Source of the DNA: a virus
Lineage: Duplodnaviria; Caudoviricetes
Length of the DNA stretch: 62,035 nucleotides
Virus record (IMG/VR): IMGVR_UViG_3300046170_000133
Span: 1 to 62,035 of that record
Strand: one strand, 5' to 3'
Shown: piece by piece, positions 1-62,035 of the stretch
How the letters are laid out: every line of letters begins with the position of its first letter
Position numbering within the stretch: position 1 is the first letter of the stretch
The notes under the pieces: model-generated
The model's database searches: none
Told to the model about the DNA's origin: nothing
What the model saw: only the letters and a program-made list of their open reading frames with translations
Program-made: the position numbers and the translations under genes

Positions 1-807
1 GCTACCGAGCAATTGGTCAACCGAATCAATAGACTCCGCTAACTCTTCAGATTGAAAGACCTGATCATTCAGAACTCTCGCTCTGTCATTATCAACTTTC
101 AACTTATCGAACATCGCATCTTTGAAAAATGCTCCGCCTTTATCTTTCGGCTTGAAGTTTTTCATCGCATCAATGACTCGCCCTAAAGAAGAATCTAAAT
201 TCTCCTTGGCATCATCCAACAAGAGTTTCTCGTTTTGACGATAGCTACCTTCAACTTGTGAAGCGATTTGTTTTCGCAACTTAGCTGAAGCAGTAGTACG
301 AATATCAGACTCAACTGAAGGAATGTTTCTGAAGTTAACATCAAAAACAAACTTTCGTGCTATCTCCCATTGCTCCAAATAGTCTTCCGATTTCCAAGCA
401 TTGCCCAAAGTATCTTTAGCACCTTCGACATAAGTCTCGTAGCTACCGATAAAATGATTGACCTCTCTATCCCACTCCAACTGAAACTTATTAATAGCTT
501 GTTGAACTTGTTCATAGTGAGTATTAGGTAACAGATAATAAACTGATTTATTACTGTCTCCTTCTTGCCATGGGTAAACATAAGGCTTGATCTCTCTGTT
601 CATAAACTTGTTGAACATTTTTCTCATATGAGAATTGATGTCAAAAGAATATAACTTCTTATCAACCTTGATGCTTCTATCATCAGCAGAATACATACCA
701 GTAACCTCATCGCTGATCTCACGATCAACTTTGATACCGCTAGGTATTTGCTTATGTATGTGAATTAAAGTCGCAACTTCTTGCAACACCGATTTTTTGT
801 TATCCAT
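1..807 (-). CDS. 5' part of early protein (DUF3150-like partner of AAA ATPase/VWA), truncated by window edge
   Basis: Same sequence as 58771-59721; ATG at 807 preceded by GGAGG. Confidence 0.85.
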   Translation of the reverse strand, partial: MDNKKSVLQEVATLIHIHKQIPSGIKVDREISDEVTGMYSADDRSIKVDKKLYSFDINSHMRKMFNKFMNREIKPYVYPWQEGDSNKSVYYLLPNTHYEQVQQAINKFQLEWDREVNHFIGSYETYVEGAKDTLGNAWKSEDYLEQWEIARKFVFDVNFRNIPSVESDIRTTASAKLRKQIASQVEGSYRQNEKLLLDDAKENLDSSLGRVIDAMKNFKPKDKGGAFFKDAMFDKLKVDNDRARVLNDQVFQSEELAESIDSVDQLLGS

Positions 808-836
808 AGTAACCTCCATAGATAATTAGTTAAAAG

Positions 837-894
837 AACTGATTTCGATTCTTTTGAATCATCATCAGGCAGACCACACAGTCCACGATCAGTT
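837..894 (-). ncRNA. Type III hammerhead ribozyme HH1
   Basis: Minus strand AACUGA-UC^GUGGAC-UGUGUG-GUCUGC-CUGAUGA-U-GAUUC-AAAA-GAAUC-GAAA-UCAGUU: full catalytic core, three stems, AUC cleavage triplet (cut between 887 and 886). Confidence 0.92.
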
Positions 895-907
895 AGAACA
901 CAGAGCA

Positions 908-935
908 GAGAAAATATTACTGGTAACATTTTCTC
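908..935. promoter_or_regulatory. 28-bp near-perfect palindrome, best copy of the genome-wide ACCAGT/AATATT motif
   Basis: GAGAAAATATTACTGGTAACATTTTCTC; related copies elsewhere in the genome. Confidence 0.7.
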
Positions 936-952
936 CACTCCAGTCCCTTGGA

Positions 953-2029
953 TTAGATCAATAAGTCTTGATGTCTAACCACAAAGTCAGAATAAACCTT
1001 AGTTTGTTTCAACTGAGATTTTATTCCCACCATAGTACGAACAAAGAAGATAGCAAACTCATCAGTCTGAAATTGCTCTACAAATTTTAGAGCGTTCTCA
1101 AAATGAATCGCTAACTCTGAGTCCTTCGATTCCTTAATGGTAGAAGTCAAAGCAACCGCAGTAGCGTATTGCAGACCCACACCTTCGGGAACATCCACCT
1201 TCTTGCCACCCAACACCTTTTCAAGATTTGGAACATCTTGCATCAAGGTTATGAAAGCCATGAACTCCGCAGTAAATTCTCGACCTACAAAACCATAGAT
1301 CAAGTTTTGCAGAATATCCTTGTCAGGATTTTGTGCTAGCACCTTAGACAAATTAGTGATTGTCCTAGGAGTCGCACTCGGCTCAACAATTTTGGGGTCA
1401 AAATTATTAAGGTACTGTGGCTGATACTGAATGAAAGCGATCAAGCGTTCATCAACACTATTTTCACTTGCCCACTTTAGCCAGTCGTTAGCGTTGCTCT
1501 CGAACTCGATCATCCCGACACGACCCATCCCATGTGCCACAATTTTGTTAGCACTTGATCTGTCGCTGTGACGATTTCCCGCTAGCACAATACTCCACCC
1601 TTCGGGGAAGACGTACTCGCCAAGTCTTCGTTCCTTAATCAACTGCGAAGCAATTGCTTGAAGGTCTTGACCCGCTTGAGCGAACTCATCTAAGAACAGC
1701 AGACCTTTACCTTTAGTCGGTAAATTTCCGAGCATTGCTCTCTTCTGAACTCCATCGACAATGTAAGGCAATCCGCCAAAGTCTACAGACTCAAAATGAC
1801 TCAGCCTAAAATCAACTAGACCAAATTGTTTAGCAGTCGGGGAAGCGTTATCCCAACTAACTGAAAGACCTTCCTCTTCAGCAAGGCTCTCTGCAAATTG
1901 ATAAATCGTTTCTGATTTACCAACACCCACAGACCCCAACACCAATGGTGTCTGATCTGCTAATTTCATCACGTGCATCATTCTTAAAGTCTGACTAGGC
2001 GATGACCCATTTATATTTTGTTCATCCAT
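953..2029 (-). CDS. MoxR-like AAA+ ATPase
   Basis: Walker A GSVGVGKS, Walker B LLFLDE, sensor AGNR, TPR(T) motif; GGAG before ATG at 2029; neighbours a VWA gene. Confidence 0.88.
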   Translation of the reverse strand: MDEQNINGSSPSQTLRMMHVMKLADQTPLVLGSVGVGKSETIYQFAESLAEEEGLSVSWDNASPTAKQFGLVDFRLSHFESVDFGGLPYIVDGVQKRAMLGNLPTKGKGLLFLDEFAQAGQDLQAIASQLIKERRLGEYVFPEGWSIVLAGNRHSDRSSANKIVAHGMGRVGMIEFESNANDWLKWASENSVDERLIAFIQYQPQYLNNFDPKIVEPSATPRTITNLSKVLAQNPDKDILQNLIYGFVGREFTAEFMAFITLMQDVPNLEKVLGGKKVDVPEGVGLQYATAVALTSTIKESKDSELAIHFENALKFVEQFQTDEFAIFFVRTMVGIKSQLKQTKVYSDFVVRHQDLLI

Positions 2030-2061
2030 AATTTTCTCCATCATAGATTAATAGTTAAAAG

Positions 2062-2115
2062 ACTGTTTCGGAACTTTTGTTCCATCATCAGAGCAAGCAC
2101 ACACTTGCTGACAGT
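2062..2115 (-). ncRNA. Type III hammerhead ribozyme HH2
   Basis: Minus strand ACUG-UC^AGCAAG-UGUGUG-CUUGCU-CUGAUGA-U-GGAAC-AAAA-GUUCC-GAAA-CAGU; GUC triplet (cut between 2110 and 2109); stems covary with HH1, loops identical. Confidence 0.93.
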
Positions 2116-2119
2116 TTTG

Positions 2120-2335
2120 CATCCCACCATTGTGAGACTGTCCCCCTCTATTCTTTAATATTTGAGGAGCAGAACTTTATTCTTGTTCTGGGAACTTGGT
2201 GTATCGTTTACCGCCCTCGCATGCTTCCTAGCAACTGTCACTTGCTACATGGTCTCTGGGGTACGACCTAGGCTACTGTCACTTATCCCTAGGAATTTGT
2301 CAGAGTCGTATTGTGCTGTTCTATAAAACCTCCAC
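2120..2335 (-). ncRNA. Structured leader RNA upstream of HH2
   Basis: Series of hairpins (UACGAC/GUCGUA with CCUAGG/CCUAGG; UAGCAA/UUGCUA; CAGAAC/GUUCUG; CUCCUC/GAGGGG); two loops contain AGUGACAGU; the second repeat copy has a different stem around AGUGACA. Confidence 0.55.
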
Positions 2336-2425
2336 GTTAAAATATAACTGGTAAGAAATTAACCAAACCAAGAAGACCGACACGCTGTCGGGGTTTGTTG
2401 ATCTGCTGTTTCTGTCCATGAGTTA

Positions 2426-2453
2426 ACTCTACGCTAATGGGAGTAGATTGCAA
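2426..2453 (-). promoter_or_regulatory. Putative sigma70 early promoter
   Basis: TTGCAA-N16-TAGAGT on minus strand, upstream of leader/HH2/ATPase. Confidence 0.45.
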
Positions 2454-2503
2454 GCACATTGCAGTCATTACATTAAGAAATAAAGACCAGTAAAATATTC
2501 CCT

Positions 2504-2992
2504 ATGACTGACGAGAAAAAACCAAACCTAAAAATAGTTAAAGACCGACCCGAAATTTTGACCCCGAAACAAAGACATTTTGTAGAACTCATAGTAAAGG
2601 GAAAGGTAACTTATAAAGAGGCATATGCAGAAGCTTACAATGTCACTCTAACGAAGTCAGGGAAGATACCTAAATGGGTAGAGACAGAGTCATCTAAACT
2701 GCTAGCAAACCCTAAGATAGCACTAAGCGTTCAGAGACTTATCAGTAAGCGAGAGGATGGTTCAGTAGCTTCTGGCATACGAACTAAGAACTATGTTCTT
2801 GAAAGACTAATGGCAGAGTCTAGGGATGCTGATTCAGATGCTAGCAGAGTCAGGGCATTAGAATTACTGGGTAAGACCATTGGAATATTCACAGACGTTG
2901 TGGAACAAAGAGAAGAGAGAGCAAGCGAAACGATAGCGGAAGAGATAGAAGAGAAGATCATCCGACTATTGGAAGAATCACAAAACGATTAA
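2504..2992 (+). CDS. terS: Terminase small subunit
   Basis: LTPKQRHFV N-terminal HTH, SKLLANPKI, RVRALELLGKTIGIF; upstream of terL. Confidence 0.88.
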   Translation: MTDEKKPNLKIVKDRPEILTPKQRHFVELIVKGKVTYKEAYAEAYNVTLTKSGKIPKWVETESSKLLANPKIALSVQRLISKREDGSVASGIRTKNYVLERLMAESRDADSDASRVRALELLGKTIGIFTDVVEQREERASETIAEEIEEKIIRLLEESQND

Positions 2993-3400
2993 TCAAATTT
3001 CTTAGCTAAAGAAAACAAAGACCACCCCTTTTGATTTTATGATCTGGATATTCTAGACGACCCCCACCCCCGCTAGAGAAACAGATTACTTGTCTACCAT
3101 ATATACATAGTGATCCACACATTTGATGTGCAGTTTTCATGTACCCCCCCCCTTCTTCTTTTTATGCTTGCATTTTGTAATCGCATATTACCTGTAACTG
3201 TAGGATAAAGGGGTAGGAATCCTACACCCCCATATATTATTATAATTTTTATGTTGACTTTCCATGTGAAGGGGTACTATTATGGTAGAGTATTGGAATA
3301 GATATACCTACTATGTAGTAAATACCAGATAAGTAATTACCAATTGGTTATACAAGGTATTGATTTTAAAGGAGTATCTACATTTCAGTATGTACCTACT
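2993..3400. other. Non-coding terS-terL spacer, candidate pac region
   Basis: C-runs, inverted repeat GGGGTAGGAATCCTACACCCC, GTA/TAC-rich tract; the right genome end maps here (~3102). Confidence 0.5.
3254..3283 (+). promoter_or_regulatory. Putative sigma70 promoter for terL/late operon
   Basis: TTGACT-N18-TATTAT. Confidence 0.5.
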
Positions 3401-4905: not shown

Positions 4906-7392
4906 TTGGCTATAGAAAAAAATCCTATGCAACCATCTACGCCTGTAGAAGGAACAATAGAACAAGGTGCTGAAGAAATTACTGTGGCGATAGAAAACCC
5001 AGACTCAGTTGCAATTGAAACTGATGATGGTGGCATGATTATAGACTTCGATCCCGATAGTAGTCCTATGGGTATGGAAGATTTTAATTCCAACCTTGCC
5101 GAGTTTATGTCCGATACCGACCTAAATGAAATGGGTCAGGACTTAGTCTCGCAGTTTGAAGCCGATAAAGATTCTCGTAGTGAGTGGGAAGAAAGCTACG
5201 TCAAAGGTTTAGATCAGTTAGGTTTAAAGATAGAAGAGAGAACTACCCCTTGGGCAGGAGCTTGTGGAGTCTTTCATCCAATGTTAAGTGAAGCTGTTGT
5301 CCGTTTCCAATCTCAGTCAATAGCAGAAATGTTTCCCGCCCAAGGACCAGTTCGCACTAAGTTAGTTGGTAAGATTACTACAGACAAAACTAAGCAAGCT
5401 CAAAGAGTTCAAGACTATCTTAATTATTTATTAACACATCAAATGTCTGAGTACCGAACTGAGACCGAGAAGATGTTATTCTCTTTACCCTTGGCAGGCT
5501 CTGCCTTTCGAAAAGTTTACTTTGATCCAAGCCTTGATAGACCAAGTTCTATTTTTGTTCCAGCCGAAGATGTAGTAGTTAACTATGGTGCAAGCGATTT
5601 AGAAACTTGTGATCGTGCTACTCATGTCATGCGTAAATCTTCAAACGATGTACGCAAGATGCAAGTCGCTGGCTTTTATCGTGATGTAGATATACCTGAG
5701 TCTAATGAAGGACAGTCAGATATTCGTAAGAAGTATGACGAAATGACAGGCGAATCAAAGACTTACAACTACGATGACCGACATACTATTCTAGAAATGC
5801 AAGTCAACCTTGATCTAGATGGTTACGAAGATATGATCGATGGGAATAAAAGCGGTATAGCTTTACCCTTATGTAGTCTCAATAGATTATCCAAGTGGCA
5901 TAGTCTTAAGTATTCGTAGAAACTATTACGAAGACGATCCTAAAAAATTAAGACGTATGCACTTTGTTCACTATCAGTATCTACCCGGATTAGGCTTCTA
6001 TGGCTTTGGTTTGATACACATGGTAGGTGGTTTAGCTAAATCTGCTACTTCAATACTCAGACAATTAGTTGATGCGGGTACACTATCTAATTTGCCGGGT
6101 GGTTTAAAATCTAGAGGTTTAAGAATTAAAGGGGATGACACACCAATTATGCCCGGAGAATTTAGAGATGTTGATGTGCCGGGTGGTGCGATCAGAGATA
6201 ACATTAGCTTCTTACCTTACAAAGAACCATCAGGAACTTTGTATCAACTCTTACAAAACATAGTAGAAGAAGGTAGACGTTTTGCTAGCATGAATGATAT
6301 GAAAGTATCTGACATGAACAATCAAGCACCAGTTGGTACTACGCTTGCTTTACTAGAAAGAAACATGAAAGTTATGTCAGCCGTGCAAGCAAGGCTACAT
6401 GCTTCGATGCGAAAAGAATTTGAAATATTAGTTGGCATAGTTAAAGACTTTACTGAACCAACTTATCCATACGAGATGGATGAAGAAGAATTTATTAAAG
6501 CTTCAGACTTTGATGATCGGGTAGATGTTCTACCAGTTTCTGATCCTAATGCTTCGACCATGGCACAAAGAATAATGCAATATCAGGCAGCCATGCAATT
6601 GGCAGCAACTTCTCCTGAAATTTATAATATGCCCGAGTTGCATAGGCAAATGTTAGAAACATTAGGTATCAGAAACGTAGATGATATTATTCCAAACAAC
6701 GATGACATCAAACCTGTTGATCCAATAACTGCAGTTCAGAATTTAATTAATGGTGTACCAGTTAAAGCTTTTATTACTCAAGACCATGAAGCACATATTG
6801 AAACAATAGCAGCAGCTCAACAAAATCCTGACGTAATACAAAAAATAGAAGCAAGTCCTACAGCTCAAAGCATCTTGGCTAATGCAAGTGCTTATGTAAA
6901 TCAACATCTAACTATGATGTTTAGAAAACAAGTTGAAGAAGAAATGGGTATACCTTTACCAGCAGAAGGCGAACCGCTACCAGCAGATGTTGAGAAACGT
7001 ATTTCTGATCTTGTAGCTGAAGCAGCCAAAGCGAGTTGCGATTACTTCTCAATCAAGAGCAGAACAAGACAGAATTGCAGCACAACAACAAGACCCACTT
7101 ATACAAATGCGTGAAAGAGAAGTGGCAATTAAAGAAGCTGACGTACAAAGAAAAATTGCTGGCGATGCTGCACGCATACAGCTAGATGCAGAGAAAGCTA
7201 AAAACCGAGATGAGATTGAAAGAGAAAGGATAGAATCTCAAGAGCAAATTGCAGGTGCTAGCATAGGGCAGAAAAGTTGCTAGTGATATGCTAGAAGCAG
7301 AGGAGAAAGCTGATAGCAAATCAGTAGAAAGATACAAGCAAGGTATTGACATTGCAAAAGATATAGCACAGAATCTAGATAGAGATGAGTGA
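4906..7392 (+). CDS. Portal protein, split by probable sequencing frameshifts (~5870, ~7030, ~7275)
   Basis: Follows terL; SRSEWE, LPLAGSAFRKVYFD, GFYGFGLIH, PVGTTLALLE motifs of P22-like marine portals; reading continues across frame changes. Confidence 0.88.
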
Positions 7393-17262: not shown

Positions 17263-20200
17263 ATGGCACTCGTATTAAACGATAGAGTAAAAGAAACTAG
17301 TACCACGTCAGGCACAGGCACGATCAATCTTGCCGGTGCTGTTACAAACTTTGAAACTTTTGTAGCTGGGATAGGTAATAGCAATACAGTTTACTATGCT
17401 ATCGTTCATCAAGATCAACCAGAATTTGAAGTAGGTATTGGTACTGTTACCGATGCATCTCCTGATACGTTGTCACGAACTACAATATTAAGTAGTTCAA
17501 ATAGTGATGGCTTAGTAAGTTTTAGTTCTGGAACTAAAGACGTATTCTGTACTTTACCAGCAAGTAAAGCAGTCTTTGAAAATGCAAGTAATGAAGTAGG
17601 AATTTCTAGTTTAAATATTGTAGATGGTTCATCTATAAATGGAACTATTACTTCATCAAGCAATTCACTTACATTAAATGGAAGAAATTCAGGTATTTTA
17701 ATATTACAAACAGGAAGTAGTGAAAGAGCTAGATTAAACTCTGACGCACTTACTTTGACAGCACCAAAGATAGCTCATGCGAGTAATTTAACAATAGATA
17801 CAGGTGGAGAAATAACTCTTGATGCTTCAGATGGCATTATAAGACTAAAAGATGATGGTACTGAATTTGGAAAAATATCACAAAATAGTAACAATTTAAG
17901 ATTTTTTAGCACTATTTCTGATGCCGACATTTTATTTCAAGGTAACGATGGTGGCTCATCTATAACAGCCCTTACCCTTGATATGTCTGCAGCAGGTAAA
18001 GCTACATTCAACTCAAGTGTATTTATAGGTAATCATTTATATCTTGGTGATAGCAAAAAAGCTATTTTTGGTGCAGGCGAAGATTTAAATATCTACCATG
18101 ATGGTAGTAATAGTTTTATACAAAATGATACTGGAATTTTAAATATAAAAAATGACGATATTAGATTTAAAACTTCTGGAGACGAAACTTCACTTAGAGC
18201 TGTAGCTAACGGAGCAGTAGAAATTATGCATAATAATTCTACTAAAATAACTACAACTTCAACAGGAGTAGACGTAACAGGCACAGTAACTGCTGATGGT
18301 TTGACTGTTGATGGTTCTGCAACATTTACTACAGCCGATAACAACCCACAGCTAACACTTATTTCTACAGATGCAGATGCTAATGTTGGTCCAGTTTTAA
18401 ACCTATATAGAAATAGTGCTAGTCCTGCCGATGGTGACGTATTAGGTCGTATTCTTTTTAAAGGCGAAGATGATGCAGGGAATGACGCTACCTTTGCTAG
18501 AATTGAAACAATCGCAACAGATGTAAGCAACGGCTCTGAAAATGCCAAAATGGAATTTTATGTTGCAATTAATGACACGTTTAATCCAAGCCTAACACTA
18601 GAAGACACAGGTGCAGCTACATTTAATTCTAGTGTAACAGCAGGAAGTTTTTTACAAGCTAATGGTCATATAAGCACAGGTTCTAACTCTGGAAGATTGA
18701 GAGCAGGATTGTTAAATCAAATTGAACTTTCACATAACGGCACTCATGGGGAGCTTGATGTTGATACAGGTAATTTAACACTTGATGTTGCTGGACAGAT
18801 TAAATTAGATGCTGATGGTGGATTTATTACTTTTGAAGATGGCGGAACACAATTTGGCTACATAGAAAATAGTAGTACAGATTTAGTCCTTGGAGCTAAC
18901 ACACAAGACAAAGACATAATTTTTAAAGGCAACGATGGCGGTAGTACAATAACTGCATTAACGCTTGATATGTCTGCAGGTGGTAAAGCTGTATTTGCAA
19001 GTAATATAGATTTTGGAGATGGTCATTTTATTGGAAATGATGGGGATGATAATTTATACATTGCAAGTAGTGCAGGAGAAAAAATTAGATTAGATTCACC
19101 AGATGAAATAATTTTAGATGCTGATGGTGGAAACATTACCTTAACCGATGGTGGCACAGCAATTGGTCAATTCCAATTAAATGATACCAACCATTTAAAA
19201 CTAGGTTCAAAAGTATCTGATGCTGATATTAGATTTTTTGGTAACGATGGTGGTTCTACTATAACTGCCCTTATTCTTGATATGTCTGAGGCAGGCACGG
19301 CTACCTTTAATAATGGTGTTGTTGTTCAAGGTGACTTGACTGTACAAGGTACTACAACAACTTTGAATACTGCTACCCTAGATGTAGAAGATAAAAACAT
19401 AACTGTAAACTTTGGCTCAGGTGATACTTCAGGTTCTGCTAATGGTGCAGGTATTACTATTCAAGATGCAGTTGATGCAAATACAGATGCAACTATTCTT
19501 TGGGATGCAAGTAATGATGAGTTTGATTTTTCACATACTGCAAATGTAACTGGAGGTGTTGTAGCTCAAACTAAATTAGCTGTAGGTGTGAGTGCTGTAC
19601 ATGGTTCTTATGGTCTATATAACCAAAACAATGCTTATTTTAATGGTGGTGTCACTATAGACGATAACTTAGCAATTACAGCAGGTTCTATATCAATTAC
19701 AGGTGATGGCAGTAATGCAACAACTTTAACTGAAAGTGGGTCAGGTGATTTTACTGTAGATACAGTAGGAAACATTGTTCTTAATGCTGATGGTGGCGGC
19801 ATACAGTTTTATGATGGTAGTGACTATATTGGTTCTTTTGGAAACTCAAGTTCTAACTTTTCAATCATGTCTAGAACAAATGATAAAGATATTGTTTTCA
19901 AAGGTATTGATGGCGGTTCTACGATTACTGCCCTTACTCTTGATATGTCTCAAGCAGGAGCAGCCACATTCAACGCAGGAGCTACCTTTGGAGGTGGTGT
20001 CACAGTAAATAGTGGTCATGTAAATATTGATGCAGGTTTATCATATCAATGGGGTGACTCACACGAAAGAATAGAACAAAGCGATGGCAATATAGAGTTT
20101 TTCACAAATAACAGTCAATCAATGACTTTATCTGGGTCAAATTTAGGAATTGGAACTACATCGCCAAATTCACCTTTAGAAGTAACTAAATCAGTAACAT

Positions 20201-22041
20201 TTAACAGTATTGATACCTTTGGGCAATTTGCTATTAAAACCGCTTCAGGTGCTACTGGCGATATGCTTAATTTTGGAGTAGATGGTGCTGATAGTTTAGC
20301 GTTTTTACAAGCACATGAAAAAGGCACTGATTTCATTCCTTTGGTTTTACAAAGATATGGTGGCAAGGTTGGAATTGGAACTGATTCGCCAGTATCAATT
20401 TTTCACACAAGAACTTCAGAATCTACTTCTAATCATAATTCAGGTGGTGGTTTTTCTTTAACAAGTTCATCAACAGCAAGTAGCAGAAACGCTAGAGTTT
20501 TCTTAGATGCAGACAATGGAAACTTTAGTACAAGTTCTGATGGTGCATACGCTTACCTTGAAAAGATAGGTGGTGGCGGAGCATTAAATATAATTAATCA
20601 AGATACAGCCGACATTAATTTAATGCATGGTGCTAATGTAAGATTAAAAATTAACACATCAGGGCAGATAGAAGGAGATATAGTAAACGGACATACTACA
20701 GAAAATACAGTAGCTAATGATGATGTTATAGCTTTCTACGATACTTCTGCTAGTGCAATGAGAAAAACTGCTATATCTAATTTACCCGGAGGAGGGGGAA
20801 GTGTTGCAGCAGATGATATTACTACAGGTGATGCGGCTGTTACTTTAGGAACTTCTTCAGGAGATATAACTTTAGATACTCCGGGAGACATTATTCTTGA
20901 TGCCGATGGCGATAATGTTTACTTTAAAGCAGGGGGAGGTAATCAAGCTTCATTTTCTTTTATAAATAGTGATGTTTATTTAGGTGTAGAAACACAAGAC
21001 AAAGATTTAATAATTAGAGGTAACGATGGCGGTTCAACAATAGTTGCCCTAACCCTTGATATGTCTGATGCAGGTACTGCTACCTTTAATCACGATGTAA
21101 AACTTGGTGATGATAGTATTCTTAAAATTGGAACTGATGGAGATTTACAGCTTACTCATAATAATAGTAATGGCACAATAAGTAACAGTACAGGTAATTT
21201 ATTATTAGATGTTGCTGGAGATATTATTTTAGATGCCGATGGTGGAGACATTAAATTTCAAGATGCTGGTACAGATATATTTTCTATTATAAATAATAGT
21301 AGTGATGCTAAATTAAAAATTGCTGTTCAAGATAAAGACTTACAATTTGAAGGTAACGATGGTGGTAGTGTCTTTACAGCTCTTACCCTTGATATGTCTG
21401 AAGGTGGCTCTGCAACTTTTAATAAAGATATTTTGTTATCTGATAATTCAGCTTTAAGATTAGGTACTGGTCAAGATTTGGCTCTGTTTCATGATGGAAC
21501 TGATTCAACTATTAGAAATACTACTGGAAATTTAATACTTGATGTAGCAGGAGATATAACTCTTGATGCTGATGGTGAAAATATAAAATTTTCTGATGCT
21601 GGAACTGAAGTAGGACAGATTGATTTAGGTTCTCAAAACTTTACTTTCAGATCACAGGTTGATGATAAAGATATAATATTTAGAGGACAAGATGGTACTT
21701 CGGAAATTGTTGCTCTTACCCTTGATATGTCAGAAGCTGGTGCAGCAACCTTTAACAACAACGTCACTGCTTTCTCAGACGAAAGACTAAAAGATAATAT
21801 TGAAACGCTTGAAGATGGTTTAGACAAAGTTGAACAACTTAGAGGTGTAACATATACCAGAGACGACAGAGAAGAAATAGGTGTCATAGCTCAAGAAGTA
21901 GAAAAGATTTTACCTGAGATAGTCTTAACTGCTAATGATGAAATGGGTACTAAGTCGGTTGATTACAGCAGAATAACTGCGGTATTAATTGAAGCAGTCA
22001 AAGAACTGTCTGCAAGAGTTAAAGAATTGGAAAGTAAATAA
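17263..22041 (+). CDS. Long tail fibre with C-terminal S74 intramolecular chaperone
   Basis: MALVLNDRVKET N-terminus; 7 GNDGG..ALTLDMS repeats; FSDERLKDNI...GVIAQEVE...LIEAVKELSARV. Confidence 0.9.
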   Translation: MALVLNDRVKETSTTSGTGTINLAGAVTNFETFVAGIGNSNTVYYAIVHQDQPEFEVGIGTVTDASPDTLSRTTILSSSNSDGLVSFSSGTKDVFCTLPASKAVFENASNEVGISSLNIVDGSSINGTITSSSNSLTLNGRNSGILILQTGSSERARLNSDALTLTAPKIAHASNLTIDTGGEITLDASDGIIRLKDDGTEFGKISQNSNNLRFFSTISDADILFQGNDGGSSITALTLDMSAAGKATFNSSVFIGNHLYLGDSKKAIFGAGEDLNIYHDGSNSFIQNDTGILNIKNDDIRFKTSGDETSLRAVANGAVEIMHNNSTKITTTSTGVDVTGTVTADGLTVDGSATFTTADNNPQLTLISTDADANVGPVLNLYRNSASPADGDVLGRILFKGEDDAGNDATFARIETIATDVSNGSENAKMEFYVAINDTFNPSLTLEDTGAATFNSSVTAGSFLQANGHISTGSNSGRLRAGLLNQIELSHNGTHGELDVDTGNLTLDVAGQIKLDADGGFITFEDGGTQFGYIENSSTDLVLGANTQDKDIIFKGNDGGSTITALTLDMSAGGKAVFASNIDFGDGHFIGNDGDDNLYIASSAGEKIRLDSPDEIILDADGGNITLTDGGTAIGQFQLNDTNHLKLGSKVSDADIRFFGNDGGSTITALILDMSEAGTATFNNGVVVQGDLTVQGTTTTLNTATLDVEDKNITVNFGSGDTSGSANGAGITIQDAVDANTDATILWDASNDEFDFSHTANVTGGVVAQTKLAVGVSAVHGSYGLYNQNNAYFNGGVTIDDNLAITAGSISITGDGSNATTLTESGSGDFTVDTVGNIVLNADGGGIQFYDGSDYIGSFGNSSSNFSIMSRTNDKDIVFKGIDGGSTITALTLDMSQAGAATFNAGATFGGGVTVNSGHVNIDAGLSYQWGDSHERIEQSDGNIEFFTNNSQSMTLSGSNLGIGTTSPNSPLEVTKSVTFNSIDTFGQFAIKTASGATGDMLNFGVDGADSLAFLQAHEKGTDFIPLVLQRYGGKVGIGTDSPVSIFHTRTSESTSNHNSGGGFSLTSSSTASSRNARVFLDADNGNFSTSSDGAYAYLEKIGGGGALNIINQDTADINLMHGANVRLKINTSGQIEGDIVNGHTTENTVANDDVIAFYDTSASAMRKTAISNLPGGGGSVAADDITTGDAAVTLGTSSGDITLDTPGDIILDADGDNVYFKAGGGNQASFSFINSDVYLGVETQDKDLIIRGNDGGSTIVALTLDMSDAGTATFNHDVKLGDDSILKIGTDGDLQLTHNNSNGTISNSTGNLLLDVAGDIILDADGGDIKFQDAGTDIFSIINNSSDAKLKIAVQDKDLQFEGNDGGSVFTALTLDMSEGGSATFNKDILLSDNSALRLGTGQDLALFHDGTDSTIRNTTGNLILDVAGDITLDADGENIKFSDAGTEVGQIDLGSQNFTFRSQVDDKDIIFRGQDGTSEIVALTLDMSEAGAATFNNNVTAFSDERLKDNIETLEDGLDKVEQLRGVTYTRDDREEIGVIAQEVEKILPEIVLTANDEMGTKSVDYSRITAVLIEAVKELSARVKELESK

Positions 22042-38155: not shown

Positions 38156-39244
38156 ATGTCTAATTTAATTAAAGCAGCAGAAGAACTAGAATATGTGCCA
38201 AAAGAAAATTTAATTCAAATGGCTCAAGCAGGCGACACTAGATTCCCGCCTTATTTAGTTTTAGCAGAAATACAACGTAGAACTCAAAATGAGAAAGCAT
38301 ATAGTGCAATGCAACCACCGCCTACTACTACAGTAGCAGAAGAAAAAGTTGCAGAGTTTGCACAGTCAGGTTTAGGAGGCATGGCTTCTCCACTTTTCTC
38401 TCCTCCCCCAGAGGATTTGCCCATGTCTCCACCTATGCAGATGGCAGCTAGCGGTGGCTTAACCGGTTATGCAAATCAAGGTAGAACTACTTATGACAGA
38501 ACCTTTGGGGAACAACTACGGGCTAATCCATATCTTAAAACTCCTGTAGCTATATTTGATCTTATGGATTATCAAGGAGCAGGCAGAAGAGCTGTTCAAC
38601 AAGAACGAGAACGAGACGAGTTGAAGAAATTAGCAGAAAAATTTGCTATAGAAGAAGAAGATTATGATGATAATTTATTAGACAATAACCCTTTTGTTTT
38701 TCAAGATGGTAGCGGAAAACCGCCTCCAGATACAACTCCAACAACAGATGTATTTGGTACGTTAGATGAACTTAAAAAACGTATGCAAGATGTTGAGTAT
38801 AAATCTCCAACTGCTGATGATTTAAGAAATGATAGAACTTCAGAAACTCTTATGTATTTAGGTTCTTTAATTGCAGGTTCAACTGATAGAAAACAATTCG
38901 GAGAGGGTTTAGCTGACTTAACTAGCAAAGTCGTAGCTAGCAAAAGAGCTGATGATAGATTCTTAAATGAAGCTAAATTAAAAGAAAGAGGCTTGTTTAG
39001 TTCTGACTTGCAATTAGCTACAGCTTTAGAAACCTTAAAAGTTAAAGCAGTACAAGCTAAAAATACTGCAGCTAAAAATAAAATTGACGAAGCTCTTGGT
39101 ATGATTCAAGCTGCAAATCTTGCCGATATGCAGACTAGAAAAAAATTACTTGATCAAGCAACAAAAATATTTTTAGGTTTAGGTGGTGAAAGTGCAACAA
39201 GTCAAGCTGATGTAGATGCTATTCTTGGTGGTGCTAAAAACTAA
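38156..39244 (+). CDS. Ejection protein
   Basis: PPYLVLAEIQRR, MAASGG; helical. Confidence 0.6.
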   Translation: MSNLIKAAEELEYVPKENLIQMAQAGDTRFPPYLVLAEIQRRTQNEKAYSAMQPPPTTTVAEEKVAEFAQSGLGGMASPLFSPPPEDLPMSPPMQMAASGGLTGYANQGRTTYDRTFGEQLRANPYLKTPVAIFDLMDYQGAGRRAVQQERERDELKKLAEKFAIEEEDYDDNLLDNNPFVFQDGSGKPPPDTTPTTDVFGTLDELKKRMQDVEYKSPTADDLRNDRTSETLMYLGSLIAGSTDRKQFGEGLADLTSKVVASKRADDRFLNEAKLKERGLFSSDLQLATALETLKVKAVQAKNTAAKNKIDEALGMIQAANLADMQTRKKLLDQATKIFLGLGGESATSQADVDAILGGAKN

Positions 39245-47358: not shown

Positions 47359-47416
47359 GAACCTGTGACTGGTAAATATTTTTAGAACCAGCGAGTTGGC
47401 TGGAAATTTTTCAGGT

Positions 47417-47762: not shown

Positions 47763-48182
47763 TCATTCCTCCATACCTAGGTTTTTTCTAATGTTAGTTA
47801 AAATCTTTTCGTTCAGGCTACCCCCATCTCTAAACTTTGTCGGTGGTTTTGACGCAGATAAAACCTGTGACTGGTAAATATTTCTTCCCGCAGCGAGATT
47901 TTCCTGAACTTGTTCTAGTAATTCTGCTTCTGTGCCATAAGCATCCTCGAATCTTTTTTTGTAGGGATGTCTGCTGATTGGCTCGATGTGACCGCCATAG
48001 CGATGGTGTGAAGGGCAAAGCGGAAGCACATATAGATGAGCATCCTTGACAGTCTTGCCTTTAGTGTGGTGAATTTCTGCGGGTACATCTGGGAAACCTC
48101 GATTCGCACAGACAATACAACCTAACTGTTGCACCTTGTCCATGTATTCCTTTTCTTCTTTGCTTGGGTTTCTTCCTTTCAT
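47763..48182 (-). CDS. Ref-like/HNH-family nuclease
   Basis: GCIVC...EIHH...LPLCPSHH...FEDAYGTEAELL. Confidence 0.75.
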   Translation of the reverse strand: MKGRNPSKEEKEYMDKVQQLGCIVCANRGFPDVPAEIHHTKGKTVKDAHLYVLPLCPSHHRYGGHIEPISRHPYKKRFEDAYGTEAELLEQVQENLAAGRNIYQSQVLSASKPPTKFRDGGSLNEKILTNIRKNLGMEE

Positions 48183-50143: not shown

Positions 50144-50168
50144 AAAAATATTACCAGTTATATTTTCT

Positions 50169-52063: not shown

Positions 52064-52087
52064 AAAATATTTAACCAGTTATATTTT

Positions 52088-56713: not shown

Positions 56714-56895
56714 GGCAAACCTGTAACCAGTAAATATTTTTGTAACCTATCACCAACCAGTCACCACGCATGTGTAATTGGAATACGCATCAAAAGGAAA
56801 AGTTCATGGTCTGTGACTCGCATAGAATATATAACCAGTAAATATTTTATTTTACTAGCCACTTTTTTCACAAGCAGATGCAAAAAATTTAGACC

Positions 56896-57305: not shown

Positions 57306-58778
57306 TCAGAATTGTCTGGGTAATATATCCATGTAAACAACCTTGCCGAATGGCAAGTCCTCAGAGTATGAAGACTGTTCTGAACATATCCACAAGACTG
57401 GAACGTCAGGCTCAACCTCTGGGTCAACCTCTCCATAACCATCAGTAAAGACAATGATTGCATCATAGTCATCATTGTCCTCTAGCTTTTGATGAAAAGC
57501 ATTGAATGGCGGAGTGAACTCTGTGCCACCAGTACCCGCACTAGGAAACTCATCCTTGTCAGGAAGAGAATCGCCCTGAGTAGTATCCCAAGTCTCCCAG
57601 TATTCGCCATTAGCATTTCGTAAAGCAATGCTAGCGAATCTGTTGACCGCAAGAACTTCTACCTGATACTGCTCGAACAAGTCCATAGCATTAGTGACGT
57701 AGTCATCTCGCTCATGTTCAGTAGACCCCGAAACATCAACCATCATTGCTATCTTTTTGATAGAAGGCTCGCTCTTCTTAGAAGGAAGATTGATACCTCT
57801 GTGTTGGTGTCTGCGATTGAGTCGAGACCATGAGTTAGAATCAGACTTAGTCGTTGAAAGAAAGTCTGCCATTTCATCTTCCCAACTCACAGAGACTTGA
57901 GTTATCTCAGCTTCTCTGCCACCGAGATAGTCAACACCGCCACTATGACCGATACCTTTTTCGAGTTTCTGAGCAACCATGACTTGAGCATCTAGAACAG
58001 TCATCTGTTCTTTAATCTCATCATCACTTAATGCTTGCCCATCCTCATCAGTAGCGGGAAGAATCGCACCCGCAAAAGAAGGCAACTCATTCAAGTCAAC
58101 TTCTCCGCTAGCACTTTTACCACCAGTCCCATCTTTTGGATTTTCTCTTTGGTCTCCTTCCTCATCGGATTGAGACCCGCCAGAAAACTCCTGACCAGTA
58201 ATATTTTCTTCTGCGTTTTGGTTCTGATCCTCAGATTGCTGACCGCCACCCTGACTGTCTTGATCTTCTTGTTCGTCTGAATCTTCCGAGTCAGAGTCTT
58301 GATCAATCAAGTCATTCAAAGCTTCGTCATCACTCATCAAAGTAGAATAGATTTTCTCGGCTGAATCTCTACCATACTTTTGAACATCAATCAGTCCGCC
58401 TTCTGGTAAAGGCTGACGTAATACATCATAGATATAATTGTTGATTGCATAATCACAAGCAATATTCCAAAGGTTAGCATTACGTCTACCCATCCTAAGA
58501 TGATGACCCCAAACAACGTGCAAAGTTTCGTGAATGATAACCGCAGTTATCTCTTCCATAGGTAGAGATAAAACAAAGTTAGCATTGAACTTGATGACCT
58601 TGCCATCGGTAGCCATGGTGTCAAACGAATTGTCTTCGATCAACTCCAACTGCAAGAGCATGCCCGCCATCCCAACTGAAGACTCAATCAGTCTGGCTTT
58701 TGCTTTTTGCATGATGTCCATCGCTGTGTATTTCGGATTGTGATAAATCTGATCACTTAAAGTATTGTAACTAGACAT
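57306..58778 (-). CDS. Metallopeptidase + VWA domain protein (DUF2201-like)
   Basis: TMATDG, HETLH, WNIACDYAIN, acidic linker, MIDAS DVSGS, GGT.F, VFTDGY. Confidence 0.88.
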   Translation of the reverse strand: MSSYNTLSDQIYHNPKYTAMDIMQKAKARLIESSVGMAGMLLQLELIEDNSFDTMATDGKVIKFNANFVLSLPMEEITAVIIHETLHVVWGHHLRMGRRNANLWNIACDYAINNYIYDVLRQPLPEGGLIDVQKYGRDSAEKIYSTLMSDDEALNDLIDQDSDSEDSDEQEDQDSQGGGQQSEDQNQNAEENITGQEFSGGSQSDEEGDQRENPKDGTGGKSASGEVDLNELPSFAGAILPATDEDGQALSDDEIKEQMTVLDAQVMVAQKLEKGIGHSGGVDYLGGREAEITQVSVSWEDEMADFLSTTKSDSNSWSRLNRRHQHRGINLPSKKSEPSIKKIAMMVDVSGSTEHERDDYVTNAMDLFEQYQVEVLAVNRFASIALRNANGEYWETWDTTQGDSLPDKDEFPSAGTGGTEFTPPFNAFHQKLEDNDDYDAIIVFTDGYGEVDPEVEPDVPVLWICSEQSSYSEDLPFGKVVYMDILPRQF

Positions 58779-59721
58779 CTTTACCACCTCCGAAAACATT
58801 AGACATAAGGTTCTTGTTCAACTTGCTCTTGGAATCTTCCGCACTAGCAAGAACTTGCTTACGTTTAGACTCTCCCAACTCAGTTTTATCTCGAAGAGTA
58901 TCAACTGAATTAATGCTACCGAGCAATTGGTCAACCGAATCAATAGACTCCGCTAACTCTTCAGATTGAAAGACCTGATCATTCAGAACTCTCGCTCTGT
59001 CATTATCAACTTTCAACTTATCGAACATCGCATCTTTGAAAAATGCTCCGCCTTTATCTTTCGGCTTGAAGTTTTTCATCGCATCAATGACTCGCCCTAA
59101 AGAAGAATCTAAATTCTCCTTGGCATCATCCAACAAGAGTTTCTCGTTTTGACGATAGCTACCTTCAACTTGTGAAGCGATTTGTTTTCGCAACTTAGCT
59201 GAAGCAGTAGTACGAATATCAGACTCAACTGAAGGAATGTTTCTGAAGTTAACATCAAAAACAAACTTTCGTGCTATCTCCCATTGCTCCAAATAGTCTT
59301 CCGATTTCCAAGCATTGCCCAAAGTATCTTTAGCACCTTCGACATAAGTCTCGTAGCTACCGATAAAATGATTGACCTCTCTATCCCACTCCAACTGAAA
59401 CTTATTAATAGCTTGTTGAACTTGTTCATAGTGAGTATTAGGTAACAGATAATAAACTGATTTATTACTGTCTCCTTCTTGCCATGGGTAAACATAAGGC
59501 TTGATCTCTCTGTTCATAAACTTGTTGAACATTTTTCTCATATGAGAATTGATGTCAAAAGAATATAACTTCTTATCAACCTTGATGCTTCTATCATCAG
59601 CAGAATACATACCAGTAACCTCATCGCTGATCTCACGATCAACTTTGATACCGCTAGGTATTTGCTTATGTATGTGAATTAAAGTCGCAACTTCTTGCAA
59701 CACCGATTTTTTGTTATCCAT
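58771..59721 (-). CDS. DUF3150-like protein between ATPase and VWA genes
   Basis: YVYPW...YLLP...DY....IARKF; GGAGG RBS; typical triad position. Confidence 0.7.
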   Translation of the reverse strand: MDNKKSVLQEVATLIHIHKQIPSGIKVDREISDEVTGMYSADDRSIKVDKKLYSFDINSHMRKMFNKFMNREIKPYVYPWQEGDSNKSVYYLLPNTHYEQVQQAINKFQLEWDREVNHFIGSYETYVEGAKDTLGNAWKSEDYLEQWEIARKFVFDVNFRNIPSVESDIRTTASAKLRKQIASQVEGSYRQNEKLLLDDAKENLDSSLGRVIDAMKNFKPKDKGGAFFKDAMFDKLKVDNDRARVLNDQVFQSEELAESIDSVDQLLGSINSVDTLRDKTELGESKRKQVLASAEDSKSKLNKNLMSNVFGGGKDV

Positions 59722-59750
59722 AGTAACCTCCATAGATAATTAGTTAAAAG

Positions 59751-59808
59751 AACTGATTTCGATTCTTTTGAATCATCATCAGGCAGACCACACAGTCCAC
59801 GATCAGTT
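59751..59808 (-). ncRNA. Hammerhead HH1, second copy
   Basis: Identical to 837-894. Confidence 0.92.
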
Positions 59809-59866
59809 AGAACACAGAGCAGAGAAAATATTACTGGTAACATTTTCTCCACTCCAGTCCCTTGGA

Positions 59867-60948: not shown

Positions 60949-60981
60949 AATTTTTCTCCATCATAGATTAATAGTTAAAAG

Positions 60982-61036
60982 ACTGTTTTCGGAACTTTTG
61001 TTCCATCATCAGAGCAAGCACACACTTGCTGACAGT
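60982..61036 (-). ncRNA. Hammerhead HH2, second copy
   Basis: As 2062-2115 with one extra base in the GAAA homopolymer. Confidence 0.85.
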
Positions 61037-61437
61037 TTTGCATCCCACCATTGTGAGACTGTCCCCCTCTATTCTTTAGTATTTGAGGAGCAGAACTTTA
61101 TTCTTGTTCTGGGAACTTGGTGTATCGTTTACCGCCCTATCATGCATCTTGTCTTCCTAACGATTGTCACTCTCGCTTTGCATGGTCTCTGGGGTACGAC
61201 CTAGGCTACTGTCACTTATCCCTAGGAATTTGTCAGAGTCGTATTGTGCTGTTCTATAAAACCTCCACGTTAAAATATAACTGGTAAGAAATTAACCAAA
61301 CCAAGAAGACCGACACGCTGTCGGGGTTTGTTGATCTGCTGTTTCTGTCCATGAGATTAACTCTACGCTAATGGGAGTAGATTGCAAGCACATTGCAGTC
61401 ATTACATTAAGAAATAAAGACCAGTAAAATATTCCCT

Positions 61438-61926: not shown

Positions 61927-62035
61927 TCAAATTTCTTAGCTAAAGAAAACAAAGACCACCCCTTTTGATTTTATGATCTGGATATTCTAGACGACCCCAC
62001 CCCCCTTAGACAAAGAGGTTACATGCCTAACATAT

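What the first reader, a model, noticed from the sequence alone, without database searches (positions are those of the whole stretch)
837..2115. Two type III hammerhead ribozymes bracket the early AAA ATPase gene, each ~80 nt before a start codon
Seen: 837-894 and 2062-2115 (minus strand, mRNA sense) both have the full core (CUGAUGA, GAAA, NUC triplet), identical loops (UGUGUG, AAAA) and the same extra U after A9. Their stem sequences differ but still pair. Cut sites lie 79-80 nt upstream of the ATGs at 807 and 2029. Known: hammerhead cleavage leaves 5'-OH and 2',3'-cyclic phosphate ends, and 5'-OH ends are poor substrates for 5'-end-dependent RNase E decay. Inference: the phage self-processes its first early transcript into standardised mRNAs, like a natural RiboJ insulator.
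Basis: partly seen in the sequence, partly recalled or inferred. Interest (0 to 1): 0.9.

Follow-up and report, generated by a model that had tools for sequence, protein, structure and literature searches.

The report
Hammerhead ribozymes bracketing a phage ATPase gene
Two small self-cutting RNA motifs (hammerhead ribozymes) sit before and after an ATPase gene of an uncultured marine phage and probably cut its transcript into separate messages; this arrangement has been described in phages since 2011, and its purpose is still unproven.

Summary
Both elements (2115..2062 and 894..837, minus strand) have a complete hammerhead core, three stems that differ yet still pair, the same two loops and the same extra U. 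The cuts fall 80 and 79 nt before SD-led ATGs. Rfam misses them at its curated score: HH-A reaches 26.1 of 48.5 bits, and HH-B has no hit.

A model built from 16 relatives scores them 78.7 and 74.9 bits. In that alignment 14 of 17 pairs change on both sides.

Among 79 IMG/VR loci found only through the ATPase protein (42-91% identity), 66 of 68 testable loci carry a hammerhead beside the gene. All lie on the gene strand. At the upstream junction type I and type III hammerheads replace each other.

All 24 distinct downstream junctions keep a long hairpin just before the cut. In the window this hairpin is far more stable on the mRNA strand.

The best reading is ribozyme punctuation of a phage operon into messages with set ends, the hypothesis of Perreault et al. 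2011. Cleavage, "early" timing and RNase E protection were not tested. Low-depth RNA-library contigs bridge both cut sites, so they give no support for cutting.

This scan has reported phage hammerheads on other DNA before. Verdict: a real feature and a new member of a known kind.

The parts
2062..2115 (-). HH-A, a type III hammerhead. The predicted cut is between C2110 and A2109. Nearly the whole ribozyme stays on the downstream (ATPase) RNA.
   Evidence: Sequence. RF00008 26.1 bits, E 4e-4, over the full model 1-54 when a 91-nt stretch was given. Model R1 78.7 bits. The minimum-energy fold is the hammerhead fold, z -2.32.
2030..2061 (-). Leader of the ATPase gene: CUUUUAACUA, an A/U-rich spacer, and SD GGAG (2039-2036). 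The ATG is at 2029.
   Evidence: The leader is shared with the HH-B module.
953..2029 (-). MoxR-like AAA+ ATPase gene (358 aa counted from ATG 2029).
   Evidence: PHROG phrog_1297 at 4.3e-70 and Pfam AAA_5 at 1.7e-4. The closest named phage homologues are 26.6-30.1% identical.
895..947 (-). Long hairpin (about 24 bp, apex UUACCAGU) between the ATPase stop codon (955-953) and HH-B. It would be the 3'-terminal structure of the excised ATPase RNA.
   Evidence: -25.6 kcal/mol, z -5.92 on the mRNA strand, against -10.0, z -1.76 on the other strand. A hairpin is present in all 24 distinct junctions of this kind.
837..894 (-). HH-B, a type III hammerhead. The predicted cut is between C887 and G886.
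   Evidence: Sequence. Model R1 74.9 bits. No Rfam hammerhead hit even when a 91-nt stretch was given. The minimum-energy fold of the isolated RNA is an alternative in which core CUGAU pairs with AUCAG.
808..836 (-). Leader of the next gene: CUUUUAACUA and SD GGAGG (817-813). The ATG is at 807.
1..807 (-). 5' part of a gene of about 316 aa from ATG 807 (ORF listing gives 320 aa from an earlier ATG), of unknown function. Its full copy runs 59733..58771 in the overlap. It is followed by a 497-aa DUF2201 metallopeptidase/VWA gene, 58799..57306.
2116..2503 (-). Non-coding region upstream of HH-A. Two hairpin loops contain UGACAGU (2283-2275 and 2242-2234), which is complementary to the HH-A cut site. 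Copies of the dispersed TTACYRGT motif lie at 2354 and 2493.
59751..59808 (-). Second copy of HH-B in the terminal overlap; identical.
60978..61038 (-). Second copy of HH-A in the terminal overlap, with an extra A (GAAAA). The ATPase frame is broken in this copy.
   Evidence: The descriptor does not accept this copy.

Best explanation
Both elements are functional type III hammerhead ribozymes carried in the leftward mRNA of an uncultured marine podophage-like genome of about 58.9 kb.

As the RNA is made, each would fold and cut itself after C2110 and after C887. This step is inferred. The upstream leader would be removed, and a 1,223-nt ATPase message (2109..887) released. Its 5' end would be a 5'-OH followed by the folded ribozyme body, a ~25-nt A/U-rich leader and a strong SD. 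Its 3' end would be a 2',3'-cyclic phosphate about 8 nt after a long hairpin. The next gene would get the same kind of 5' end from HH-B.

The purpose is most likely to uncouple neighbouring genes in stability and translation, giving each message fixed ends that do not depend on context. This is a natural counterpart of the synthetic RiboJ insulator, and an instance of the hammerhead punctuation of phage operons described in 2011.

Shown here: the motifs, their covariation, their conserved position and strand, and the conserved junction layout. Inferred: cleavage in vivo, the fate of the ends, and the benefit to the phage.
For: 1. The full core, G10.1-C11.1, A15.1-U16.1 and C17 are present in both copies.

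2. Covariation. In 16 relatives found with a pattern that fixed only the loops and core, 97.8% of cells pair, against 64% in shuffles and 32-44% with slid partners; 14 of 17 pairs change on both sides. In 49 distinct hammerheads from loci found through the protein alone, 97.7% of cells pair and 15 of 17 pairs change on both sides (that alignment is fitted to the model).

3. Strand. 95 of 95 model hits and 115 of 115 descriptor hits lie on the gene strand, with 0 on the opposite strand in 298 kb.

4. Position is conserved at 42-91% ATPase identity. A hammerhead lies within 250 nt upstream in 61 of 78 loci (36 type I, 25 type III) and downstream in 49 of 69. Of the 68 loci testable on both sides, 66 have at least one and 34 have both.

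5. Module regularity. The cut-to-ATG distance is 76-83 nt in 23 of 23 distinct type III modules. By my reading of the printed folds, most type I modules with a 5' UTR of 50 nt or more place a hairpin right after the cut.

6. A hairpin lies before the cut in 24 of 24 distinct downstream junctions, z -2.7 to -7.1. In the window it is far more stable on the mRNA strand.

7. Perreault et al. 2011 showed cleavage in vitro, and in E. coli, for other clustered prophage hammerheads (passages read).
Against: - No cleavage data exist for these RNAs.
- In RNA-library contigs, X16 record 3 (779-929) and X20 record 9 (778-954) bridge the HH-B cut. X20 record 10 runs across the cut site of an HH-A variant. 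So uncut template is present, either as RNA or as carried-over DNA; depth is 2-6.
- Rfam's curated thresholds are not reached.
- The isolated HH-B sequence prefers an alternative fold. With its 240-nt leader, HH-A's minimum-energy fold disrupts the ribozyme. Two leader loops can pair across its cut site more strongly than its 5-bp stem III. HH-A may therefore be slow or regulated rather than constitutive.
- In this window HH-A has no gene upstream on its strand, so there it removes a leader rather than separating cistrons.
- Predicted SD accessibility does not change on cleavage: 0.41 against 0.41, and 0.35 against 0.35.
- The four nearest named phages by TerL (52.6-57.6% identity) have 0 of 4 hits, so the device is not essential to the lineage.
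- 2 of 68 ATPase loci have no hammerhead detected on either side.
Confidence: 0.6

Rival explanations
1. Regulated or timed cleavage. HH-A is a conditional ribozyme. Leader hairpin loops (UGACAGU, two copies), and a leader copy of the stem I strand (AGCAAGUG), compete with the short stem III and with stem I. Cutting, and with it ATPase-operon expression, would then depend on co-transcriptional folding, translation or a phage/host factor.
For: - Two 7-nt anti-cut-site loops lie within 175 nt upstream of HH-A. The homologous leader of L002 keeps 2 copies at 77% identity. By my own arithmetic about 0.02 copies are expected in 300 nt.
- The minimum-energy fold of leader plus HH-A is not the ribozyme fold.
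- HH-B also has an alternative fold.
Against: - Only 5 of 92 distinct hammerhead contexts have any upstream anti-site, so this is local to one leader.
- The two leader hairpins are not more stable than shuffles, z -0.85 and -0.33.
- Co-transcriptional folding usually favours local ribozyme folds (recalled).
Confidence: 0.15
2. 5'-leader trimming of separate transcripts. The dispersed AAATATTTACYRGT motif in the apex of the pre-HH-B hairpin, and at 2354 upstream of HH-A, is a promoter. Each hammerhead would then clip a short 5'-triphosphate leader off a freshly started RNA, rather than cutting a polycistronic one.
For: - The motif occurs 11 times against 2.26 expected.
- Several copies sit right before start codons, and they are oriented with the genes.
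- Homology between the window and L001 breaks exactly between the motif (2339) and HH-A (2118).
Against: - In the window the hairpin is far more stable on the mRNA strand, and the lower stems differ in sequence among the 24 junctions while still pairing. That points to an RNA element, not a DNA site.
- In type I junctions the hairpin lies after the cut.
- No sigma-70-like site was found there.
- No transcription start data exist.
Confidence: 0.12
3. Circular ATPase mRNA. The excised 1,223-nt RNA has a 5'-OH and a 2',3'-cyclic phosphate. It would be closed by the ribozyme's reverse reaction or by an RtcB-type ligase.
For: The end chemistry follows from hammerhead cleavage (established knowledge). 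Perreault et al. raised this possibility. Another first-stage note on this window raised it too.
Against: - The 3' end (…AACUGAUC) does not match HH-A's stem III strand (ACAGU) without a bulge next to the core, by my reading.
- Close relatives L001 and L002 also have unlike stems III in the two ribozymes.
- Perreault et al. report that they detected no circular or spliced products.
- No joints were seen in the RNA contigs (table 5), though depth is very low.
Confidence: 0.04
4. Cassette boundaries. The ~85-nt unit of hammerhead, leader and SD is mainly a repeated recombination or mobility unit that shuffles genes between related phages, and cleavage is secondary.
For: - L001 has an 806-nt insert (an extra HH-B-like hammerhead plus a 121-aa ORF) in place of window 2338..2119.
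- L002 has an extra 86-aa gene plus a hammerhead directly after its HH-A.
- The modules resemble each other at 78-89% identity over 54-86 nt.
Against: Cores are intact and stems covary everywhere, which needs selection on the RNA fold. Both things can be true at once.
Confidence: 0.07
5. Chance motif or dead relic with no activity.
For: Rfam gathering scores are not reached. One overlap copy has an extra A in GAAA.
Against: R1 E-values of 1e-18 to 1e-20, covariation, strand bias of 115 to 0 and conserved position.
Confidence: 0.02

Closest known systems
Clustered hammerhead ribozymes flanking single genes or short gene blocks in prophages and phages (Perreault et al. 2011, PLoS Comput Biol, PMC3088659; passages read)
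   Same: Several hammerheads lie within a few kb on the gene strand, in intergenic positions, bracketing one gene. Types are mixed among relatives. The proposed role is the same: processing of long phage transcripts into single-gene mRNAs.
   Different: - The host phage here is an uncultured marine virus, not a prophage.
- The bracketed block is a MoxR ATPase / unknown / DUF2201-VWA operon.
- Described here: a conserved pre-cut hairpin, a fixed cut-to-ATG distance, and type I/III replacement at one orthologous junction. I did not see these in the passages I read. The paper's figures and supplements were not available to me.
Rfam RF00008 Hammerhead_3 (type III hammerhead; seed mostly viroid, satellite and plant sequences, by recall)
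   Same: Same core, same three-stem topology open at stem III, and a full-length alignment of HH-A to the model.
   Different: HH-A scores 26.1 bits against a gathering score of 48.5. HH-B gives no hit. Loop I is a 6-nt UGUGUG loop, there is one extra U after A9, and loop II is AAAA.
RiboJ (synthetic insulator made from the sTRSV hammerhead plus a hairpin; Lou et al. 2012, recalled, not read)
   Same: A hammerhead that cuts near its own 5' end. Any upstream leader is removed, and the downstream message starts with 5'-OH plus the ribozyme body at a fixed distance from the RBS.
   Different: This one is natural, and it is not derived from sTRSV. No dedicated extra hairpin separates ribozyme and SD. 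An insulating effect has not been tested.
HHphage of haloviruses HF1/HF2 (Perreault et al. 2011, passage read)
   Same: A hammerhead just upstream of the first gene of an early polycistronic phage transcript. The mapped 5' end lies within 3 nt of the cut site.
   Different: That one has a variant core with insertions, lies 13 nt from the start codon, and is in an archaeal virus. The core here is canonical, and the cut lies 79-80 nt from the ATG.
Rfam RF03152 RAGATH-1-hammerhead and RF00163 Hammerhead_1
   Same: The type I hammerheads that replace HH-A at the same junction in relatives align to these models: 34.3 and 23.8 bits, and 21 bits.
   Different: All are below the gathering scores (56.3 and 34). 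The window itself has no type I copy.

Membership tests
Hammerhead ribozyme, type III | Core strand C3-U4-G5-A6-N7-G8-A9 | tested here: met
   CUGAUGA is present in both copies. One extra U follows A9 in both. It is treated as an insertion in the RF00008 alignment.
Hammerhead ribozyme, type III | Core strand G12-A13-A14, the A15.1-U16.1 pair, and cleavage-site triplet N-U-H | tested here: met
   GAAA is followed by stem III. The triplets are GUC (HH-A) and AUC (HH-B). The U:A pair is invariant in 16 of 16 and 49 of 49 relatives.
Hammerhead ribozyme, type III | Three helices around the core, stems I and II capped by loops, stem III open | tested here: met
   Stems of 6, 5 and 5-7 bp. Covariation in 14 of 17 and 15 of 17 pairs. 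HH-A's minimum-energy fold is the hammerhead fold.
Hammerhead ribozyme, type III | Base pairs directly next to the core (N1.1-N2.1, G10.1-C11.1) | tested here: met
   A-U and G-C at 1.1-2.1, and G-C at 10.1-11.1 in both copies.
Hammerhead ribozyme, type III | Loop I / loop II tertiary contact that allows fast cleavage at low Mg2+ | tested here: inconclusive
   Among 21 distinct type III hammerheads from the ATPase-ascertained loci, loop I is UGUGUG (G-U-closed GUGU) in 13 and loop II is AAAA in 10. That is consistent with selection on the loops, but no 3D test was made.
Hammerhead ribozyme, type III | Site-specific self-cleavage giving 5'-OH and 2',3'-cyclic phosphate ends | not testable with these tools
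   Only contigs from RNA libraries could be laid, and these cannot show ends.
Rfam RF00008 Hammerhead_3 | Score at or above the gathering threshold (48.5 bits) | tested here: not met
   No hits at gathering in the window. HH-A scores 26.1 bits. HH-B has no hit at E up to 10.
Clustered phage hammerheads (Perreault 2011) | Two or more hammerheads within a few kb, on the gene strand, in intergenic positions, flanking a gene or short block in a phage genome | tested here: met
   HH-A and HH-B are 1.2 kb apart, both on the minus strand with the genes. Phage genes (terS, terL, portal, primase-helicase) are in the same record.
RiboJ-like insulator (function, not family) | Downstream expression becomes independent of the upstream sequence after cleavage | not testable with these tools
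   Only indirect evidence: a fixed 76-83 nt 5' UTR in 23 of 23 modules. Predicted SD accessibility is unchanged by cleavage.

The most novel reading that the evidence does not exclude
The junction as a whole would be a phage-encoded mRNA punctuation cassette that sets both ends of each message. Its parts, in order: a mRNA-strand hairpin with a conserved UUACYRGU apex, a hammerhead cut, a structured 5' end, a ~25-nt UUUUAACU-type leader, and an SD. Selection would act on the product ends, meaning a hairpin-capped 3' end with a cyclic phosphate, and a 5'-OH followed by structure. It would not act on the ribozyme's topology. That would explain why type I and type III hammerheads replace each other at one orthologous junction, and why type I junctions add a hairpin right after the cut. 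This would be the first defined natural counterpart of a RiboJ-type insulator, and a concrete answer to what phage hammerheads are for.
Probability: 0.3. Interest if true: 0.65.

Novelty: new member of a known kind. Interest (0 to 1): 0.45.

Why it matters
The biological role of bacterial and phage hammerheads is still open. The 2019 review PMC6765202 says more work is needed to define it (passage read).

This locus offers a compact and widely conserved test case:
- one gene bracketed by two canonical ribozymes;
- a conserved hairpin before the cut;
- a fixed-length leader after it;
- natural type I and type III swaps at the same junction in relatives.

These features give clear predictions for reporter and end-mapping experiments. 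The case also shows that Rfam's curated thresholds miss this marine-phage variant, so routine annotation will overlook it.

Tried and rejected
Rfam. A whole-window scan at gathering gave nothing. A 1.8-kb scan at E up to 10 also missed both elements, because of the speed filters. Only 91-nt stretches were informative.

Cultured relatives. The HH-A plus leader stretch found nothing by blastn in 50,697 phage records. Model R1 found nothing in Pelagibacter phages HTVC027P and HTVC023P, phage DSL-LC04 or phage 023Pt_psg01, 0 of 4. That tool warns that an empty answer proves little.

Bacterial and archaeal genomes. The exact loop-and-core pattern has 0 matches in genome contigs. A looser pattern gave 3 contigs. 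Two of them, binned as Saccharibacteria MAGs, carry clusters of 4 and 2 good hits. I draw no host from this.

Expression. Fourteen DNA runs hold half or more of the stretch's sampled words. Six RNA-library runs hold 9-13%. Laying four RNA runs gave 10 short contigs at depth 2-6. None ends at a cut site, and some bridge the cut sites. This neither supports nor excludes cleavage.

SD unmasking by cleavage: rejected, since unpaired probabilities are identical.

Leader motif CTTTTAACTA as a dispersed signal: rejected, 19 matches against 14 expected.

Sigma-70 promoters and intrinsic terminators near the ribozymes: none convincing.

Trans-cleavage sites: not possible for this topology, because stems I and II are both closed. 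I did not search for them.

Papers. Four full-text searches found no study of hammerhead function in marine phage mRNAs. Supplements were closed, so I could not check whether this variant is in Perreault's Dataset S1.
Full report
WHAT IS THERE

On the minus strand, 2115..2062 (HH-A) and 894..837 (HH-B) each read as a complete type III hammerhead. In order, each has:
- the 5' strand of stem III;
- the triplet GUC (HH-A) or AUC (HH-B);
- a 6-bp stem I capped by UGUGUG;
- the core CUGAUGA plus one extra U;
- a 5-bp stem II capped by AAAA;
- GAAA;
- the 3' strand of stem III.

The predicted cuts are C2110|A2109 and C887|G886. These lie 80 and 79 nt before ATG 2029 (SD GGAG) and ATG 807 (SD GGAGG). 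Between the two copies 5 of 6 stem I pairs and 3 of 5 stem II pairs differ and still pair.

CHANCE

- CTGATGA-N8-30-GAAA occurs 7 times in the window against 1.53 expected, and 0 of 100 shuffles reach 7.
- A three-stem descriptor of my own finds 2 sites in one genome length, against 10 hits in 100 shuffled genomes.
- With filters off, covariance model R1 finds only these elements, at E 1e-18 to 1e-20; the next hit has E 0.28.
- Rfam is of little help. It gives nothing at gathering. HH-A reaches 26.1 bits against 48.5 for RF00008, and only when a 91-nt stretch is given. HH-B gives no hit at all.

THE RECORD

The window is a whole IMG/VR virus record. Its ends overlap: 1-~3121 matches 58915-62035 at 94-100% identity over most stretches (one 86-nt block is 74% identical), with indels. 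The genome is therefore about 58.9 kb, and the further copies at 59751-59808 and 60978-61038 are not independent. In that second copy the ATPase frame is broken and HH-A has an extra A.

Genes:
- HH-A;
- a MoxR-like AAA+ ATPase (phrog_1297, 4.3e-70);
- HH-B;
- a gene of about 316 aa from ATG 807 (320 aa in the ORF listing), of unknown function;
- a DUF2201 metallopeptidase/VWA protein;
- terS, terL and a portal run the other way from 2504.

TerL is 52.6-57.6% identical to Pelagibacter phages HTVC027P and HTVC023P, DSL-LC04 and 023Pt_psg01. None of these four has an R1 hit.

RELATIVES

An exact pattern that fixed only the core and loops hit 25 IMG/VR loci. All have the full three-stem fold with different stem sequences. 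In 16 distinct ones 97.8% of cells pair, against 64% in shuffles and 32-44% with slid partners, and 14 of 17 pairs change on both sides.

To avoid ascertainment by the motif, I fetched 79 loci through an alignment of the ATPase alone, at 42-91% identity.
- R1 gave 95 hits there, all on the gene strand.
- My descriptor, which also recognises type I, gave 115 hits on the gene strand and 0 on the other.
- A hammerhead lies within 250 nt upstream of the ATPase in 61 of 78 testable loci: 36 type I and 25 type III.
- One lies within 250 nt downstream in 49 of 69, all type III.
- Of the 68 loci testable on both sides, 34 have both, 32 have one and 2 have none.
- Some "none" cases show a core that my descriptor did not accept, so these are lower bounds.
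- Two type I examples align below threshold to RF03152 and RF00163.
- On the 49 distinct R1 hits, 97.7% of cells pair and 15 of 17 pairs change on both sides. That alignment is fitted to the model.

JUNCTION LAYOUT

In type III modules the cut-to-ATG distance is 76-83 nt, in 23 of 23 distinct modules that have an SD and an ORF of 50 codons or more within 260 nt. Modules without such an ORF were dropped and not counted.

In type I modules the distance is 24-114 nt (n = 35). By my reading of the folds printed, most of those with 50 nt or more start with a hairpin right after the cut.

Between the ATPase stop and the downstream type III hammerhead, all 24 distinct spacers fold into a long hairpin, z -2.7 to -7.1. 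The lower stem differs in sequence while still pairing. The apex keeps UUACYRGU in about 18 of 24, by my reading of that output.

The window's hairpin (895-947) is -25.6 kcal/mol on the mRNA strand and -10.0 on the other. It is therefore an RNA element, and it would cap the 3' end of the excised ATPase RNA about 8 nt before the cut.

EXPLANATION

The best reading is self-cleavage that punctuates the operon. The leader is removed at HH-A. The ATPase message is released with a 5'-OH plus ribozyme body at one end, and a hairpin plus cyclic phosphate at the other. The next gene gets the same standard 5' UTR.

This is the hypothesis Perreault et al. 2011 put forward for clustered prophage hammerheads. 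They showed cleavage in vitro and in E. coli for other examples (PMC3088659, passages read). A 2019 review still calls the purpose undefined (PMC6765202, passage read). The comparison with RiboJ, and the argument that a 5'-OH resists RNase E, rest on recalled knowledge.

RESULTS AGAINST, OR NOT IN FAVOUR

- No cleavage evidence. RNA-library contigs at depth 2-6 bridge both cut sites. The material may be DNA carry-over or uncut RNA.
- Isolated HH-B prefers an alternative fold.
- With its leader, HH-A's minimum-energy fold is not the ribozyme fold.
- Two leader loops (UGACAGU) are complementary to its cut site and are kept in L002's homologous leader. Only 5 of 92 hammerhead contexts show any such anti-site.
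- Predicted SD accessibility is unchanged by cleavage.
- No promoter was identified, so "first early transcript" cannot be judged.

OTHER READINGS

- The dispersed AAATATTTACYRGT motif occurs 11 times against 2.26 expected and often sits just before ATGs. It might be a promoter. In that case the ribozymes trim 5' leaders of separate transcripts.
- Circularisation of the excised RNA is unlikely, because the two stems III do not match (also unlike in relatives) and no joints were seen.
- Close relatives differ by whole cassettes of hammerhead plus gene exactly at these modules. The modules may therefore also serve as recombination boundaries.

VERDICT

The feature is real, canonical and conserved, and it is a new member of a known kind. 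This scan has already reported phage hammerheads on other DNA.

What this case adds is a well-defined and widely conserved junction layout, plus natural type I and type III swaps. Together these make the old question of function testable.

Noticed in passing
window 1-3121 and 58915-62035: The two ends of the record are overlapping copies at 94-100% identity over most stretches, with indels and one 74% patch (1896-1981 against 60812-60897). The ATPase frame is broken in the right-hand copy. This looks like a circular or terminally redundant genome assembled from two variants, or with errors.
   Followed up: partly
window 908-935, 2338-2354, 2485-2500, 46327-46338, 47368-47379, 47870-47881, 50151-50160, 52072-52095, 56726-56737, 56834-56845 and others: The semi-palindromic motif AAATATTTACYRGT(WA) occurs 11 times against 2.26 expected. 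Most copies are on the minus strand of the 46-57 kb region, and several lie directly before start codons (terS 2504, 52063, about 50143). It also forms the apex of the hairpin before HH-B. It could be a promoter, a terminator or a protein site; this is unresolved.
   Followed up: partly
window 2283-2275 and 2242-2234 (minus strand), also 2142-2136: Two hairpin loops in the HH-A leader contain UGACAGU, complementary to the HH-A cut site ACUGUC|A. A third GACAGUC copies the 3' strand of stem III. Two copies are kept in the homologous leader of L002.
   Followed up: partly
L002:2384-2474, L022:2374-2460, L007:2970-3055, L008:476-561: These type III hammerheads in relatives have two small hairpins (about 30 nt, different sequences) inserted between A9 and G10.1. 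That is exactly where the window's ribozymes have one extra U.
   Followed up: partly
L001:1611-2416 against window 2338-2119; L002:2068-2448: Close relatives (77-92% identical flanks) carry extra cassettes of hammerhead plus a small gene (121-aa and 86-aa ORFs) inserted next to HH-A. Gene gain and loss happen at the ribozyme modules.
   Followed up: partly
window 4906-5919 and 5957-7114 (plus strand): The portal gene appears split into two ORFs of 337 and 385 aa, which match the front and back of phrog_1216.
   Followed up: no
window 39244-47358 (plus strand): A giant 2,704-aa ORF matches only PHROGs of unknown function (phrog_9854, phrog_18222). It may be a virion-borne enzyme; this was not examined.
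   Followed up: no
window 17785-21764: Seven to eight diverged repeats of about 100 nt lie inside a 1,592-aa ORF (17263-22041), probably a repetitive tail fibre.
   Followed up: no
L117:5518-7772 and L118:5443-7623: Clusters of 4 and 2 hammerheads of the same variant (loops UGUGUG and AAAA) lie on contigs binned as Saccharibacteria MAGs. So the variant is not confined to the marine ATPase phages.
   Followed up: partly
window 2029-2021 and 807-799; leaders 2050-2030 and 825-808: The two modules are alike through the start codon (AUCUAUG..GGAG..UAUGGAU). Each is predicted to form a small hairpin that pairs the region just before the SD with the start-codon region.
   Followed up: no
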